DNA from: an uncultured virus (IMG/VR IMGVR_UViG_3300027708_001828)
Taxonomy: Duplodnaviria; Heunggongvirae; Uroviricota; Caudoviricetes
Virus record (IMG/VR): IMGVR_UViG_3300027708_001828
Strand: one strand, 5' to 3'
Length of the DNA stretch: 20,000 bases
The translations under genes were made by a program, and so were the position numbers. Positions 710 to 18,948 of the stretch are shown piece after piece. Under the pieces are notes generated by a model, which was not told the origin of the DNA, ran no database searches, and saw nothing but the letters and a program-made list of their open reading frames with translations. The number at the start of each line of letters is the position of its first letter. The stretch's first letter is position 1.

Positions 710-2161
710 ATGGCCCAACTATTAAATGTAACAGAAGACGGCACCGTCATAATGGACAAAGTAGCCCTGAAATACACATCAGGGAGCATAATCCATTCTG
801 GAAGTCTTGAAGTAATCAACTCTGTACAGATCGACAACAATCTAGTTGTTGCTGGAACCATCACGGCCGACACGTTCAATGTTAAGAATTTAATCACAGA
901 AAACGGCAGTCTAGCATCTGTAGGCAATTGGATTTACAACTCAGAAGCTGAACTAAACGGCAAAGGTTTTACCTGGAGCTGGGGTACTGGACAAACACAA
1001 CTGGTGTATCGTTCGGGTAGCAGAATTTGGGCCAACGCTAGTTTTGACATCACAGCAGAATCCAGTTACCGTATTGACAACATTGCTGTGCTTACCAGTA
1101 ACAGTTTGGGTGCCACTATTACCAACAGTAGCCTGACCAGTATAGGCACTCTAAATTCACTTGCAGTGTCCGGCAGTAGCACATTTGCAGACTTTGTTTA
1201 CATTGACAGCGACAGTAATAGAATTGGTATAGGCACACCCGAGCCCAACAGTTCGCTCAGTATTTTAGACAACAACGTGGAACTCACTATAGGCAGTCCG
1301 CAGATCAGTCTAGGTGCCATTGGTACACACAGCAGTCACGATCTTGCTATTGTTACAGACAATATTCCACGTATCACAGTCAAGAATATGGGCGAAGTGC
1401 AGATAGGCAACGCTCAAAGCAACGGTGCTGTGCTACGTGTTTACGGTACTATCTATGCTGATCGTATCGAATCAGCTGGCAGCACAGGCATACCAAAAAG
1501 CGTAGAATTCGTATCCACGCAAGAATCCAGTATGTTTGGTACAGGTCTAGTATGGACCAGTGGTGCTTTATCACATCAGTTGGTCATGATGGATCATCCT
1601 CGCAGACTTTGGACTACAGAAAACTTTGATCTTGACAAAGATCGCTCGTATCATATCAACGGTGAAGTGGCCCTTAGCGCCGGCACCCTGGGATCATCTA
1701 TCACTATCAGCAATTTGACCAAATTAGGCATACTGAGTGATCTGCACGTGAGCGGTCCTGCAGTGGTAAAATCAATCACAGCTGGATCTCTAACAGTGGA
1801 TAACACAGTGTATGGATCCGGTGGCTTCTCATATGAAGGACAACCAGTGATCACAGCCTATGGCAATCAAACTATCATAGGCAATAGAGATGTACAAACT
1901 GCTCCGGTCAAGATATTTGGACCGTTGAGCGTGAATGTAAACAATCCAGAACCGGGTGTACAGTTCAGCGTCAACGGTGATGTCAGTATCGGCGGCAAAA
2001 AGTTTACCAATGGTATAGGTGTTCCAAGTAGTGGTACATTTACACAGGGCGACATTTGCTGGAACATAGGACCGCAGCCAGGCGGATATGCGGGTTGGAT
2101 TTGTACAGCCAGTGGAACCCCAGGAGCATGGGCGCCGTTTGGATTGATTGCTAGCCAATAG
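710..2161 (+). CDS. Phage structural/tail-fibre-like protein (483 aa) with an internal ~73-aa duplication
   Basis: Contains fibre-type motifs RIGIGTPEP and SSLTSIGTLNSLAVSG, and a C-terminal PSSGTFTQGDICWN..P.PGGYAGWICT..GTPGAWAPFG module of the kind seen at the ends of phage tail proteins. A late-promoter motif is upstream. Confidence 0.7.
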   Translation: MAQLLNVTEDGTVIMDKVALKYTSGSIIHSGSLEVINSVQIDNNLVVAGTITADTFNVKNLITENGSLASVGNWIYNSEAELNGKGFTWSWGTGQTQLVYRSGSRIWANASFDITAESSYRIDNIAVLTSNSLGATITNSSLTSIGTLNSLAVSGSSTFADFVYIDSDSNRIGIGTPEPNSSLSILDNNVELTIGSPQISLGAIGTHSSHDLAIVTDNIPRITVKNMGEVQIGNAQSNGAVLRVYGTIYADRIESAGSTGIPKSVEFVSTQESSMFGTGLVWTSGALSHQLVMMDHPRRLWTTENFDLDKDRSYHINGEVALSAGTLGSSITISNLTKLGILSDLHVSGPAVVKSITAGSLTVDNTVYGSGGFSYEGQPVITAYGNQTIIGNRDVQTAPVKIFGPLSVNVNNPEPGVQFSVNGDVSIGGKKFTNGIGVPSSGTFTQGDICWNIGPQPGGYAGWICTASGTPGAWAPFGLIASQ

Positions 2162-2163
2162 AG

Positions 2164-2191
2164 TTGACCTTTACAGTTAAATCTGTATAAT
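2164..2191 (+). promoter_or_regulatory. Sigma70-type promoter for the queD-like / membrane protein / uvsE operon
   Basis: TTGACC (2164-2169), 16-nt spacer, perfect TATAAT (2186-2191), in the intergenic gap. Predicted +1 is near 2197-2199. Confidence 0.8.
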
Positions 2192-2195
2192 TACT

Positions 2196-2246
2196 ATATG
2201 CGGACTTAGGCATTCATCCCGCAATATAAACTCTGCATGCCATTGC
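2196..2246 (+). ncRNA. Candidate cis-regulatory pseudoknot RNA (preQ1-I-riboswitch-like) in the queD 5' leader
   Basis: P1 is TGCGG (2199-2203) with CCGCA (2219-2223). Loop GGCAT (2209-2213) can pair with ATGCC (2237-2241). The linker ATATAAACTCTGC starts A-rich. SD AAGGAG follows at 2253-2258. Confidence 0.55.
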
Positions 2247-2264
2247 TTAATCAAGGAGATTACA

Positions 2265-2750
2265 ATGGCAAAATTTTACTCAACAAAAACTTACGGAAAC
2301 GACCGCGGCTTATCATGCTGTTTTAGACAATGGCGTGCCACACACAGCCACTGCTCGACACTACATGGTTACTCAATCGGCATCAAGCTAATCTTTGAAT
2401 GCGATACACTAGATGACAAAAACTGGTGTATGGACTTTGGTGGGCTTAAAGAATTTAAAGCGTGGGCAGACTATATGTTTGATCACACGTTAGTAATCGC
2501 AGAAGATGATCCTCACTTAGAAACATTCCAAAAACTAAATGCAATTAAGGGCGGTTTTGAAGACAGCGGAATATGTGATCTACGCATTGTGCCCGGAGTA
2601 GGCTGTGAAATGTTTGCTAAAATAGCCTACGATAAAATGGCTGAACTTTTGGCAAGTGGTGATATGCGTTATCCAATTAATCCAACAGTAAGAATCAAAT
2701 CGGTCGAGGTGTTCGAACATGGCGCAAATTCGGCTACCTACGAAGGTTGA
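2265..2750 (+). CDS. queD: 6-pyruvoyl-tetrahydropterin synthase / QueD-family protein (non-canonical HGY variant)
   Basis: Motifs HCSTLHGY, MDFGGLK, FDHTLVIAEDDP, GCEMFA and C-terminal VEVFEHGANSATY fit the PTPS/QueD family. Strong SD AAGGAG. Confidence 0.85.
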   Translation: MAKFYSTKTYGNDRGLSCCFRQWRATHSHCSTLHGYSIGIKLIFECDTLDDKNWCMDFGGLKEFKAWADYMFDHTLVIAEDDPHLETFQKLNAIKGGFEDSGICDLRIVPGVGCEMFAKIAYDKMAELLASGDMRYPINPTVRIKSVEVFEHGANSATYEG

Positions 2751-2964
2751 TTTTTATATTGAGTGGCTCGCTACTGTATCATTTTTATGTTCAGTGGCGT
2801 TGACCTCTCTTAACTACTATCCAACTTATCTATATATCAGTCTATTAACCAATGTACTTTGGTTAATAGTAGGTATTATCTGGCGCAAATGGTCGCTCAT
2901 AACAGTTGAATTTGTCGTCTGTTTCATGTATACTATAGGTATTATAAACTACTGGCTACACTAA
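2719..2964 (+). CDS. Small integral membrane protein (81 aa, about 3 TM helices)
   Basis: Three hydrophobic segments with a W..T....LTS.N.YP......W...G..W...SLI pattern. SD-like GAGGTG upstream. Overlaps the queD end by 32 nt and is coupled to uvsE by TAATG. Confidence 0.7.
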   Translation: MAQIRLPTKVDFYIEWLATVSFLCSVALTSLNYYPTYLYISLLTNVLWLIVGIIWRKWSLITVEFVVCFMYTIGIINYWLH

Positions 2965-3989
2965 TGAAACGTCTCGGCTTTGCCTGCAAGTGGATCGATC
3001 GTCCAGATCAAGTGGACGGTATCAGTCCAAAAGACGATGCAAAAAAATACAACACTGGTTCGACTACAGTTTCTTGGTTAAATAGACAATCGAGAGATCA
3101 AGCGGAACAAAAGTTATGGGACCTAATGGTAGGCAATATCGAGGCAACTCGAAAGTTGGTAGAACGTGTCAGCACACTTGACCCTCATCTTAGGATGGTT
3201 AGGATTAGCAGTGACATTCTCCCTGTTTATACTCACGCTGACTTTGCTGATTATTGGCGTAAACCTGACGTGGTTTCATACGCCGAAACCGCGTTTAAAA
3301 GAGTGGGCGATCTTGCTCGCAATAGCAATGTTCGGTTGTCTATGCATCCTGGGCAGTTTACTGTCCTGGCAAGCGATAACCCAGGCATTGTCGAACGCTC
3401 AATCGCAGAGTTCGAATATCACACAGACATGGCCCGCTGGATGGGCTATGGAAAGTCGTTTCAAGACTTTAAAATCAATGTACACATATCAGGTAAACAA
3501 GGTCCCGAAGGTATCAGACGAGCCTACGGAAAACTAACACCCGAAGCTCGAAACTGTATTACAATCGAAAACGAAGAAAACTCATGGGGGCTAGATGATT
3601 GTCTCACTATTAGCGATATTATACCTATTGTTCTTGACGTTCATCATTTTTGGATTCGAGAAGGAAGTTACTTAGATCCTAGCGATATCCGAGTTACACG
3701 GGTTGTTGACAGCTGGCGCGGCCTTCGTCCTACTATGCATTACTCCATATCAAGAGAAGACTATCTTGTTGGACACGATCCAATGGTTCCACCAGACCAT
3801 AAACAGCTTCTTTTAGACGGTTACAAAAAGCAAAAGCTCAGAGCCCACTCTGACTTTTATTGGAATACAAAAGTTAGTGAATGGGCCTTGAGCTTTTTAG
3901 AAACACACGATATTATGTGCGAATCTAAGGGTAAGAACTTGGCTAGCTTTGCTCTATACGAGCAAGCTAAACTACTTAAACTGCTTTAG
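2964..3989 (+). CDS. uvsE: UV-damage endonuclease (UvsE/UVDE family)
   Basis: Family motifs RLGFAC, RISSDILP, RLSMHPGQFTVLAS, NVHISG, IENEE, LDVHH, MHYS, AHSD and DIMCESKGKNLA. Confidence 0.93.
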   Translation: MKRLGFACKWIDRPDQVDGISPKDDAKKYNTGSTTVSWLNRQSRDQAEQKLWDLMVGNIEATRKLVERVSTLDPHLRMVRISSDILPVYTHADFADYWRKPDVVSYAETAFKRVGDLARNSNVRLSMHPGQFTVLASDNPGIVERSIAEFEYHTDMARWMGYGKSFQDFKINVHISGKQGPEGIRRAYGKLTPEARNCITIENEENSWGLDDCLTISDIIPIVLDVHHFWIREGSYLDPSDIRVTRVVDSWRGLRPTMHYSISREDYLVGHDPMVPPDHKQLLLDGYKKQKLRAHSDFYWNTKVSEWALSFLETHDIMCESKGKNLASFALYEQAKLLKLL

Positions 3990-4191
3990 GCTTACGTGGA
4001 GCACGTGGCTTTTTAACAGCTGGTGCTTTCTTAGCCGCTGGCTTTTTCTTAGCTGGTGCCATAGATTCTACAACTGCTTGTGTAGCTTGTTCAGCAACTG
4101 CTGTAGGTGCAGGAGTTTCCACTTTATAAGGAACTTCTGCTTCTACTGCTTTAGGCTTAATACCAAATAGTTTTTTAATGTGATGTAACAT
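3976..4191 (-). CDS. Small basic protein (71 aa) with a Lys/Ala/Pro-rich, histone-H1-like tail
   Basis: Start reassigned to the ATG at 4191 (MLHHIKKLFG), which has SD TAGGAG and an upstream TATAAATA. The C-terminus is PAKKKPAAKKAPAVKKPRAPRKPKAV. Confidence 0.75.
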   Translation of the reverse strand: MLHHIKKLFGIKPKAVEAEVPYKVETPAPTAVAEQATQAVVESMAPAKKKPAAKKAPAVKKPRAPRKPKAV

Positions 4192-4211
4192 AGTTAAATC
4201 TCCTAGTCCAA

Positions 4212-4226
4212 TATTTATAATAAATA
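4212..4226. promoter_or_regulatory. Back-to-back late promoters: TATAAATA on - (4219-4212) and TAAATA on + (4221-4226)
   Basis: Perfect T4 late consensus facing the basic-protein gene, and a TAAATA 5 nt before the SOD ATG. Confidence 0.75.
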
Positions 4227-4231
4227 TCATT

Positions 4232-4792
4232 ATGTATAACTTTATTAGGTACGTTAGTTTAAATGAGGGCTACTCTCCCAAAACATTGGAGCAATCTCCC
4301 TTGCCATACGCCAAGGATGATTTAGAGCCAGTCAAAAGTGAAGATACTATAAACTATCATTATGGAACACTGTACAAAGGATATGTAGATCGCTACAACA
4401 AAGGTGAAGGAGATCCCGACTTCAACGAAGCAGGTGCTTTTTTACATGACATTTATTTCAAACAGTTTCATAAACCCACAGGTAACAATCATCCCGATCA
4501 CATAGCTTTGAATTTTATCAACAAACACTTTAAGACTTTTGAAAATTTCCGAGACAAAGTGCAAAAGTCAGCTATGGGTATACAGGGGTCTGGTTGGGTA
4601 TACCTGGCTCGTGATGGGTCAATCAAAACTATCAAGAATCATGAGATTCGAATGGATATCATACTGCTGATTGACTGGTGGGAACATGCTTGGGCTTTGG
4701 ATTATCAAGCTGACAAAAAAGCCTACTTGCGAAACATCTACAAAATAATCAACTGGAATGTGATTGGCTCTAGAGTTGGTCGAGTGTCTTAA
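4232..4792 (+). CDS. sod: Fe/Mn superoxide dismutase
   Basis: Motifs LPY...LEP, YHYG..YKGYV, AFLHDIYF, GSGWVYL and DWWEHAWALDY. All four metal ligands (H, H, D, H) are recognisable. Confidence 0.9.
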   Translation: MYNFIRYVSLNEGYSPKTLEQSPLPYAKDDLEPVKSEDTINYHYGTLYKGYVDRYNKGEGDPDFNEAGAFLHDIYFKQFHKPTGNNHPDHIALNFINKHFKTFENFRDKVQKSAMGIQGSGWVYLARDGSIKTIKNHEIRMDIILLIDWWEHAWALDYQADKKAYLRNIYKIINWNVIGSRVGRVS

Positions 4793-5057
4793 GACTGCTG
4801 GCCGGCATTGACCATACTTTTCTAGCTTCCACGCCCTTGAGCTGGGCAAACTTTTTAGCGTCACAATCACCACACACATGGTATACATTGTTGCTTAGTC
4901 GCTTGGGATCCATTGATCCCCTATCTCGTGTAAACACTTCCTGACAACAGTCGCATCTGAACACAAGTACTTGCTTTTCTCGCACATAGGTGTGAGTAAA
5001 TCCCCGATTACTGGTTCTTACATAGTGGTTTTGTCGCTGTTCTGTTCTGATATACAT
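4770..5057 (-). CDS. Hypothetical basic Zn-ribbon protein (95 aa)
   Basis: CDCC...CGDC cysteine pairs and Arg/Lys-rich sequence. Start reassigned to the ATG at 5057 (MYIRTEQ) because the longer ORF runs across the promoters and into erpA. Confidence 0.7.
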   Translation of the reverse strand: MYIRTEQRQNHYVRTSNRGFTHTYVREKQVLVFRCDCCQEVFTRDRGSMDPKRLSNNVYHVCGDCDAKKFAQLKGVEARKVWSMPASSLKTLDQL

Positions 5058-5098
5058 TAATGTATTTACATTAAGGTTATAAAATTCTATGCTAAATA
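5052..5098. promoter_or_regulatory. Divergent TAAATA promoters (5068-5063 on -, 5093-5098 on +) with overlapping palindromes
   Basis: The motifs face the Zn-ribbon gene and erpA. Palindrome ATACATTAATGTAT at 5052-5065 and inverted repeat TTAATGTA-TT-TACATTAA at 5057-5074. Confidence 0.65.
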
Positions 5099-5115
5099 TT
5101 ACAACAAGGGACAAC

Positions 5116-5439
5116 ATGATCACTATTTCTGCTTCGGCCAAGACTAAAATTAAAGATTTGATCTACGAAGAGGGCAATCCTAACCTAGCACTGCGTACAT
5201 TTGTACAGGGCGGCGGGTGTAGCGGATTCAGCTATGGCTTCACATTCGATGAAATAGCAAATGAAGATGATTTTACAATTCCCTTAGACGAATTTCGAGT
5301 ACTTGTAGATGCAATGAGTATGCAGTATCTTACAGGTGCAGAGATAGATTATAAAGAAGATTTACAGGGCAGTTCATTCAGCATAAAGAATCCCAACGCA
5401 CAAACAACATGCGGTTGCGGTTCTAGCTTTGGAGTTTAA
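5116..5439 (+). CDS. erpA: A-type Fe-S cluster carrier (ErpA/IscA/HesB family), 107 aa
   Basis: Motifs [26 protein letters not shown] and [14 protein letters not shown] with the three conserved Cys. Start at 5116 (MITIS) after SD AAGGGA. Confidence 0.92.
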
Positions 5440-5442
5440 TAA

Positions 5443-18948
<13,506 letters not shown>

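What the first reader, a model, noticed from the sequence alone, without database searches (positions are those of the whole stretch)
2196..2264. Candidate phage riboswitch: preQ1-I-like pseudoknot in the leader of a queD-like gene
Seen: a sigma70 promoter puts +1 at about 2198, right where a 5-bp stem begins (UGCGG/CCGCA). Its 15-nt loop contains GGCAU, complementary to AUGCC at 2237-2241 beyond an A-rich linker. This gives an H-type pseudoknot ending 11 nt before SD AAGGAG. Competing pairings exist: GCAAU (2221-2225) with AUUGC (2242-2246), and CUCU (2231-2234) with the SD GGAG. Known: preQ1-I aptamers are small H-type pseudoknots that regulate que genes, and QueD acts in preQ0/preQ1 synthesis. 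From memory, type-I aptamers end in CAUCCC-stem-A-rich-AACU, which matches CAUCCCGC-AAUAUAAACU here. The 5' loop (ACUUAGGCAU rather than UUCG) and the P2 partner differ. Inference: a divergent phage riboswitch, possibly with altered specificity (preQ0, CPH4/CDG or a pterin), or a protein-bound autoregulatory operator controlling the pathway.
Basis: partly seen in the sequence, partly recalled or inferred. Interest (0 to 1): 0.88.

Follow-up and report, generated by a model that had tools for sequence, protein, structure and literature searches.

The report
Phage queD ON-switch RNA pseudoknot
The short leader before this uncultured giant phage's queD gene folds into a small RNA knot that many related phages keep through compensating base changes and that is wired to switch translation on, while a similar knot before folE is wired to switch it off, which points to an uncatalogued, untested phage riboswitch pair that may sense the intermediate between the two enzymes.

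Summary
Confirmed. Window 2199-2241 is an H-type pseudoknot in the leader of a phage QueD-family gene. Gene-blind scans put the motif directly before QueD in 114 of 123, 112 of 120 and 106 of 120 hits, almost only in phage DNA. It fails preQ1-I membership: the first loop base, U6 in preQ1-I, is U/A/C in near-equal parts. The knot competes with helices that bury the start codon or the Shine-Dalgarno, so it reads as a translational ON switch, not feedback repression. A sister mini-knot with a similar core precedes folE (115 of 120 hits) and would bury the SD, an OFF switch. The two co-occur in 10 of 12 loci. Best reading: a metabolite riboswitch (about 0.65). The opposite wiring suggests the FolE product and QueD substrate, dihydroneopterin triphosphate or its reduced-pterin pool (about 0.3). 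Ligand binding is untested; Rfam and the papers searched do not hold it. This scan has noted the queD motif and its ON wiring before on other genomes.

The parts
710..2161 (+). Upstream gene, virion structural protein; its stop opens the 103-nt intergenic gap
   Evidence: ORF; phrog_6002 E 1.5e-14
2164..2191 (+). sigma70-type promoter TTGACC-16-TATAAT; predicted +1 about 2198
   Evidence: 11 of 12. A -10-like or TAAATA element lies just 5' of P1 in 185 of 238 leaders, against 70 on shuffled flanks. Start site not measured.
2199..2203 (+). P1, 5' strand; G2203 forms the top G-C pair
   Evidence: 4 of 5 P1 pairs change on both sides, top pair G-C 53 of 53; P1 complementary in 118 of 120 hits with two positions left free
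2204..2208 (+). Loop L1: variable first base, invariant C2205 and U2206, variable spacer
   Evidence: invariant columns; first base U 53 / A 47 / C 44 of 144
2209..2213 (+). P2a, 5' strand
   Evidence: 4 of 6 P2a pairs change on both sides; 87% of first four positions pair natively against 48% in chimeric pairings, n=239
2214..2218 (+). U-C-A-U-C: U opposite C2236, P2b pairs C2215-G2235 and A2216-U2234, short L2 ending in invariant C2218 (candidate ligand-pairing base)
   Evidence: A-U swaps to G-C: with a UCCGC tail the loop base is G in 113 of 113 parseable hits of 120; C2218 invariant; ligand role inferred
2219..2223 (+). P1, 3' strand
2224..2233 (+). Loop L3: A2226, A2228, A2230 invariant, ending in invariant U2232-C2233
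   Evidence: invariant columns; fixed length in 77 of 80 protein-anchored loci
2234..2241 (+). P2b 3' strand (U2234, G2235), invariant C2236, P2a 3' strand AUGCC 2237-2241
2238..2245 (+). Switch strand: overlaps P2a and alternatively pairs with 2263-2270 over the start codon (OFF state)
   Evidence: MFE; the base after the anti-AUG triplet matches position -1 in 95 of 96 leaders of this class, C:G 58 and U:A 37
2248..2262 (+). Inner hairpin UAAUC/GAUUA around the SD (AAGGAG 2253-2258); persists in both states
   Evidence: opening cost 11.5 kcal/mol without the knot, 5.9 with it, for the identical leader L001
2265..2750 (+). QueD/PTPS-family gene, 161 aa, C-x3-H-G-Y subfamily
   Evidence: PF01242 E 1e-15; phrog_2389 E 2e-37; below the TIGR03367 cut-off; 51% identical to the annotated QueD of phage Iggy

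Best explanation
A phage-specific, metabolite-sensing translational ON riboswitch. The mRNA starts at P1 (inferred). Without ligand, the strand just after the knot core pairs with the start codon or SD and blocks initiation (computed, and supported by covariation). A small molecule with a guanine-like face pairs with the invariant C before the 3' strand of P1, is also read by the invariant U-C at the end of L3, and locks P2b and P2a (inferred). That pulls the switch strand off the initiation region, so QueD is made. A sister mini-knot with the same core elements buries the SD of folE, giving OFF. The simplest single signal for 'folE off, queD on' is the FolE product and QueD substrate: dihydroneopterin triphosphate or its dephosphorylated reduced-pterin pool (about 0.3 of all readings; some other guanine-faced ligand about 0.35).
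For: Covariation in P1, P2a and P2b. Invariant unpaired bases cluster at the helix junction, as in a pocket. Tight gene link independent of the gene search: 114 of 123, 112 of 120, 106 of 120 hits directly before QueD, most others truncated or with an inserted gene ahead of QueD. The leader is kept across 7 protein clusters, including a canonical C-x3-HGH QueD. The motif sits at the predicted 5' end. ON wiring: opening cost 8.1 against 4.9 kcal/mol (n=173), native above a shuffled-switch-strand control in 146 of 173; at least two different platforms, anti-AUG and anti-SD, and further anti-SD forms in the G-C variants (6.7 against 2.6, n=78). Sister motif: 115 of 120 hits before FolE, P1 middle pair complementary in 120 of 120, SD open without the knot (median 1.6 kcal/mol), co-occurs in 10 of 12 loci. 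Precedent from passages read: one C plus one U reads guanine and pterins in THF-II and Guanine-II (PMC12445698); THF-II binds 7,8-dihydroneopterin (PMC6800512).
Against: No binding, structure or expression data. The knot-versus-free energy comparison is biased towards ON by design, because removing the aptamer can only remove partners; only the first set had a shuffle control, and in 12 of 173 leaders the shift went the other way, with no P2a-to-initiation pairing in 22. Counts are of sequences, not independent events. The two motifs differ (top P1 pair C-G against G-C, L1 one base against three or more), model R1 gave no hit at the sister motifs, and the sister's P2 never varies, so their kinship and a shared ligand are inference. 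The window's own genome shows no folE and no sister motif in the 36% and 72% complete records. 19 of 80 folE loci lack the sister motif. RNA-run contigs cross the promoter and cannot show the start site.
Confidence: 0.65

Rival explanations
1. Protein-bound translational operator. One protein, for example phage FolE, binds the shared core, represses its own mRNA through the folE mini-knot and activates queD by stabilising the larger knot.
For: It explains the opposite wiring without a small molecule. Phage pseudoknot operators have precedent: T4 gp32 binds a pseudoknot 5' of its own gene (passage in PMC10690425). The motifs are nearly confined to one group of phages, as expected for a phage-encoded partner.
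Against: The leader is retained across QueD proteins that fall into 7 clusters at 70% identity, which argues against QueD itself as the binder. The invariant bases are pyrimidines facing each other at the helix junction, above a G-C floor and next to an A-rich L3, the layout described for a preQ1-I pocket (PMC11625349).
Confidence: 0.2
2. A divergent preQ1-I riboswitch that still binds preQ0 or preQ1 (made with host QueC/QueF) and acts in feedback.
For: G-C floor pair 53 of 53, invariant C before the 3' strand of P1 (preceded by U in 121 of 144), A-rich L3, H-type knot, que gene downstream. Rfam's silence is weak for such small aptamers: it also missed a preQ1-I-looking leader before folE in a Flavobacterium phage.
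Against: The U6 position is U in only 53 of 144, the next base is C rather than U, and L3 ends A-Y-U-C. The knot frees rather than buries the initiation region, so end-product binding would be positive feedback. No full-length QueC in 4 near-complete carriers.
Confidence: 0.1
3. A ligand-free structural element: a 5'-end knot that protects the mRNA or sets a fixed or temperature-dependent translation rate by folding kinetics.
For: It sits at the predicted 5' end, and two competing folds can tune output without a ligand.
Against: It is found only before QueD (one copy per genome in G001 and G002), has invariant unpaired bases, and has re-evolved different switch helices with the same logic. The T4-style block on upstream read-through transcripts (recalled) does not fit, because the whole switch lies downstream of the promoter.
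Confidence: 0.05

Closest known systems
preQ1-I riboswitch (Rfam RF00522; types I-III, as described in PMC11625349 sections 4 and 8)
   Same: Small H-type pseudoknot in the leader of a que gene; G-C pair closing P1; C directly before the 3' strand of P1, mostly as UC; A-rich L3; translational platform.
   Different: First loop base not U; second base C; L3 ends A-Y-U-C; P2 is 7-8 pairs long with a U-C mismatch and lies upstream of the SD; knot formation frees initiation (ON); found in phages; no Rfam match at E 10.
THF-II riboswitch (folE motif of Rhizobiales; PMC6800512)
   Same: Lies before a gene at the GTP-pterin branch; binds reduced pterins, including 7,8-dihydroneopterin; a C plus a U read the ligand (PMC12445698).
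   Different: Two-stem hairpin with the SD in P1, OFF logic, bacterial; no Rfam hit to either phage motif.
Fremin et al. 2023 candidate DNAVirus_1239 (PMC10690425, supplement rows)
   Same: Viral candidate structured RNA within 25 bp of folE (59 nt, 25 marine sequences); may be the folE sister motif described here.
   Different: I could not see its sequence (files 1 and 2 unreadable). No QueD/PTPS-linked candidate appeared in the readable tables, and the rows seen give no pseudoknot, ligand or direction.
T4 gene 32 autoregulatory pseudoknot operator (passage in PMC10690425)
   Same: Phage leader pseudoknot controlling translation.
   Different: Bound by the gene's own product to regulate its translation; precedes an ssDNA-binding protein gene. 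The queD knot precedes a metabolic enzyme and frees initiation.

Membership tests
preQ1-I riboswitch | Match to Rfam RF00522 | tested here: not met
   No hit at gathering score or at E up to 10 in the window or in 20 homologous loci. Weak test: a preQ1-I-looking phage leader was also missed.
preQ1-I riboswitch | H-type pseudoknot with P1, P2 and A-rich L3 | tested here: met
   Covariation
preQ1-I riboswitch | G5-C18-equivalent floor pair closing P1 | tested here: met
   G-C in 53 of 53
preQ1-I riboswitch | Specificity C before the 3' strand of P1, as UC or AC | tested here: met
   C invariant; preceded by U 121, C 21, A 2 of 144; often AC in the G-C variants, 44 of 78
preQ1-I riboswitch | Conserved U6 (and U7 in types I and III) at the start of L1 | tested here: not met
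   First base U 53, A 47, C 44 of 144; second base invariant C
preQ1-I riboswitch | A30 (and C31 in type I) at the end of L3 | tested here: inconclusive
   L3 ends A-Y-U-C. In one register A30 is kept but C31 is U in 77 of 144; in the other C31 is kept and A30 is U. The register needs a 3D structure.
preQ1-I riboswitch | Ligand-bound knot turns the gene off (SD burial or termination) | tested here: not met
   Computed and covariation evidence point to release of the initiation region; no terminator-like site
preQ1-I riboswitch | Binds preQ1 or preQ0 | not testable with these tools
   Needs in-line probing or ITC
THF-II riboswitch | Two-stem hairpin with RBS in P1, before folE, Rfam match | tested here: not met
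   Architecture differs (PMC6800512 passages); no Rfam hit
Riboswitch (general) | In the 5' leader of functionally related genes, with conserved structure and an expression platform | tested here: met
Riboswitch (general) | Direct, protein-free ligand binding that changes expression | not testable with these tools
   No data
QueD (CPH4 synthase), for the downstream gene | PTPS-family fold in a FolE-QueD-QueE context | tested here: met
   PF01242 and phrog_2389; FolE and QueE-like genes nearby in G002-G004; 51% to Iggy QueD. Below the TIGR03367 cut-off; activity not tested.

The most novel reading that the evidence does not exclude
A new riboswitch class found essentially only in giant phages that senses dihydroneopterin triphosphate (or its reduced-pterin pool), with two forms wired in opposite directions: OFF on folE and ON on queD. 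One intermediate would then throttle its own synthesis and call up the enzyme that consumes it, keeping the phage pathway from draining host GTP or competing with host folate synthesis.
Probability: 0.3. Interest if true: 0.92.

Novelty: new variant of a known kind. Interest (0 to 1): 0.76.

Why it matters
Riboswitches are described as rare in phages, and the examples cited are predictions from known bacterial families (passages in PMC9004378). This motif is in no Rfam family, occurs in hundreds of phage contigs, is almost absent from 185,579 prokaryotic genomes for the pattern tested, and comes with several different ON platforms and a sister OFF motif. It is about 45 nt long, so ligand, direction and structure can be tested cheaply in vitro and in a laboratory E. 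coli reporter. If the ligand is the pterin intermediate, it would show a virus metering a branch-point metabolite with RNA and a preQ1-like fold re-tuned to another ligand. It also raises a separate question: these phages encode FolE, QueD and QueE but no detected DpdA, TGT or full QueC, so the end use of the pathway is open.

Tried and rejected
Two early pattern scans had a linker one base too long; they returned mostly chance matches and were not counted, and the corrected pattern was checked on known loci. Rfam: nothing in the window or in 20 homologous loci. Cultured phages: no blastn match in 50,697 records; model R1 found nothing in 8 annotated QueD regions of about 10-12 kb, so I found no cultured carrier. 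RNA runs X1 and X2 are contigs only; pieces cross the promoter, so they say nothing on start site, strand or level. CUCU/GGAG is not the main competitor in the window, though a CUCC/GGAG form serves as anti-SD in some G-C variants. A DNA-modification reading was not supported for these carriers: no DpdA by NF041059, phrog_887, phrog_7068 or phrog_19058 in 5 genomes each (two of those models rang in no control genome), none by tblastn with DpdA1 and DpdA3 queries, no TGT, only partial QueC-like hits; a weak DpdA3 hit at L214 lay over an unrelated short ORF. PHROG scans covered about 200 of the 130-420 aa ORFs of G002, not the whole proteome. Model R1 does not detect the folE sister motif. No tree-based count of independent changes was made. 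The supplement of PMC5737381 and files 1-2 of PMC10690425 could not be read.

Full report
Setting. The window is part of a 133-kb phage record, G000, which lies at about 100% identity inside a 265-kb record, G001. It has T4-like structural genes and 29 tRNA genes plus a tmRNA. ORF 2265-2750 is a PTPS/QueD-family protein (PF01242 E 1e-15; phrog_2389; below the TIGR03367 cut-off). It is 51% identical to the annotated QueD of phage Iggy, whose DNA carries dPreQ0 (PMC10484667, passages read).

Observation. The promoter match is 11 of 12. Rfam has no match in the window at the gathering score or at E up to 10, nor at the motifs in 20 related loci.

Conservation. A protein-anchored search found 343 relatives, of which the best 80 were fetched. 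77 of 80 carry the leader motif; the other 3 abut the upstream gene. On the 53 distinct full-length leaders, 91% of cells pair, 9 of 13 pairs change on both sides, 0 of 500 shuffles reach this, and slid registers give 28-53%. Three further tests left partner positions free in the search pattern. P1 was fully complementary in 118 of 120 metagenome hits, and the 2 exceptions had no QueD. When the tail was set to UCCGC instead of UCUGC, the opposing loop base was G in all 113 parseable hits of 120; the 7 unparseable ones had no QueD. That establishes an inner P2b pair, A-U or G-C, next to an invariant C-G. Over 239 unique leaders the first four P2a positions pair 87% of the time against 48% for strands taken from different leaders, with 23 distinct fully paired combinations. 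These are counts of sequences, not of independent events. Invariant unpaired bases are C2205, U2206, C2218, A2226, A2228, A2230, U2232, C2233 and C2236.

Gene link and range. Of the other 9, four are cut by contig ends, three have a cupin or methyltransferase-like gene inserted ahead of QueD, one precedes an endonuclease-like ORF that is followed by QueD in the longer locus L272, and one precedes a weak PF01242 match. The downstream proteins fall into 7 clusters at 70% identity, one of them a canonical C-x3-HGH QueD, and the leader variants are mixed across the three largest clusters, so the leader follows the function rather than one gene lineage. The GTDB scan of 185,579 genomes gave 3 hits on 4-8 kb MAG contigs, one next to the same virion gene; that pattern covered only the commonest variant. 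G001 and G002 each hold one copy. A -10-like or TAAATA element lies just 5' of P1 in 185 of 238 leaders against 70 expected. No cultured carrier was found.

Direction. In 173 unique leaders the computed cost of opening the SD-to-start region is 8.1 kcal/mol without the knot and 4.9 with it; the gain exceeds 1 kcal/mol in 145 and is reversed in 12. The 3' strand of P2a pairs into the initiation region in 150. This comparison favours ON by construction, so I shuffled the 10 bases after the core: native leaders were more closed than shuffled ones in 146 of 173. Sequence evidence agrees. In the anti-AUG class (n=96) the switch strand matches position -1 in 95 (C:G 58, U:A 37) and the first base of codon 2 in all 96; a second class (n=65) pairs with the SD instead. 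The G-C variants use further anti-SD helices (6.7 against 2.6 kcal/mol, n=78, no shuffle control). Different platforms, one logic: knot formed means initiation free.

Sister motif. In near-complete relatives folE lies 3-4 kb upstream of queD and a QueE-like gene is also present. 61 of 80 folE loci carry a smaller element: a covarying 3-4 pair P1, loop AUCC(A/U)C, then UAAC-UC-GGAG. A gene-blind scan put it directly before FolE in 115 of 120 hits, and the middle P1 pair was complementary in 120 of 120 although left free. Loop UCC can pair with GGA of the SD; those pairs never vary, so they are unproven. Without the knot the SD is open (median 1.6 kcal/mol, n=99), so a knot would switch folE off. 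It accompanies the queD motif in 10 of 12 loci holding both genes and the queD leader. Both motifs have a C just before the 3' strand of P1 and A-Y-U-C at the end of L3, followed at once by P2. They differ in the top P1 pair and in L1, and model R1 does not cross-detect the sister, so kinship is inferred. Neither folE nor the sister is in the incomplete G000 or G001.

Mechanism. Shown by sequence comparison: the knot, its tie to QueD, the competing helix. Computed: OFF without the knot, ON with it. Inferred: a ligand with a guanine-like face pairs with C2218 and is read by U2232/C2233. The pathway is GTP to H2NTP to CPH4 to CDG to preQ0 (PMC10516641 and PMC10484667, passages read). A signal that turns folE off and queD on is most simply H2NTP or its reduced-pterin pool. 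Precedent: a C plus a U read both guanine and pterins in THF-II and Guanine-II (PMC12445698, passages), and THF-II binds 7,8-dihydroneopterin (PMC6800512, passages). I give a small-molecule riboswitch with a ligand other than end-product feedback 0.65 (pterin intermediate about 0.3), a protein operator 0.2, preQ0/preQ1 feedback 0.1, no effector 0.05.

End use of the pathway. I detected no TGT, no DpdA and no full-length QueC in the carriers searched (limits under Tried and rejected). PMC10516641 proposes that all deazaguanine-modifying viruses encode a DpdA, so either a divergent DpdA was missed or the product feeds host QueC/QueF/TGT; G000 encodes all four GUN-anticodon tRNAs, the queuosine substrates (recalled). 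This is open, and I do not adopt the DNA-modification wording of some earlier notes.

Comparison. Against the preQ1-I features given in PMC11625349 (sections 4 and the first part of 8 read), the floor pair, specificity C and A-rich L3 are met, U6/U7 and OFF logic are not, and A30/C31 is ambiguous. It works like a preQ1-I-type knot but is not a member. Rfam's silence is a weak test, since it also missed a preQ1-I-looking leader before folE in Flavobacterium phage immuto_2-6A.

Print record. Seven full-text searches on the RNA found no description of the queD motif; most results were seen as listings only. PMC10690425 (passages and supplement rows) lists a marine viral candidate, DNAVirus_1239, before folE that may be the sister; its readable tables hold no QueD/PTPS entry, but its alignment files could not be read, and its 25-bp cut-off could miss this motif. 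The supplement of PMC5737381 was unreadable. PMC9004378 (passages) calls riboswitches rare in phages. PMC4342423 and PMC11317127 (passages) added nothing. Subscription papers are not searched. This scan has noted the same queD motif and ON wiring on other genomes; I had recorded the ON reading before seeing those notes, and they are not counted as support.

Verdict. A real, well-supported, uncatalogued phage regulatory RNA; probably a translational ON riboswitch with an OFF sister; ligand untested. Interest 0.76.

Noticed in passing
L207:4970-4998 (folE leader in G002): Sister mini-pseudoknot overlapping the SD of phage folE, with covarying P1; predicted OFF switch. May equal DNAVirus_1239 of PMC10690425.
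   Followed up: yes
[quoted passage not shown]: By eye a compact preQ1-I type II-like hairpin with A-rich tail in a cultured phage; no Rfam hit at E 10. A different element from the two studied here, and testable in culture.
   Followed up: partly
G002, G003, G005, G006: Near-complete giant phages encode FolE, QueD and QueE-like genes (checked in G002, G003; FolE and QueE in G005) but no detected DpdA or full QueC; the end product of the pathway is unexplained.
   Followed up: partly
L272, L354, L361, L368, L214: Genes (endonuclease-like, cupin, methyltransferase-like, a 130-aa unknown) have inserted between the RNA motif and its queD or folE gene and taken over the regulated ribosome site.
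   Followed up: partly
L367; L691 (Pseudomonas phage PA5oct): Two different QueD-family genes in one region: in tandem behind the motif in L367; two annotated paralogs near folE in PA5oct, without the motif.
   Followed up: no
window 2719-5439: Stress and cofactor gene cluster after queD: DUF6552, UV endonuclease UvdE, Fe/Mn superoxide dismutase and an ErpA/IscA-type Fe-S protein.
   Followed up: no
window 5443-18693: A 4416-aa ORF, probably a tail or baseplate fibre; its first 1000 aa match no PHROG.
   Followed up: no
G000:C1 84270-92930 and 112031-112261: Cluster of 28 tRNA genes and a tmRNA flagged as permuted; by eye a ribosomal protein bS21-like ORF elsewhere in the record.
   Followed up: no
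   Followed up: no
upstream of P1 in 61 of 238 leaders: A TAAATA element in place of a -10 box, resembling a T4-type late promoter (recalled); G002 encodes a late sigma factor. The switch may be used in both early and late transcripts.
   Followed up: partly
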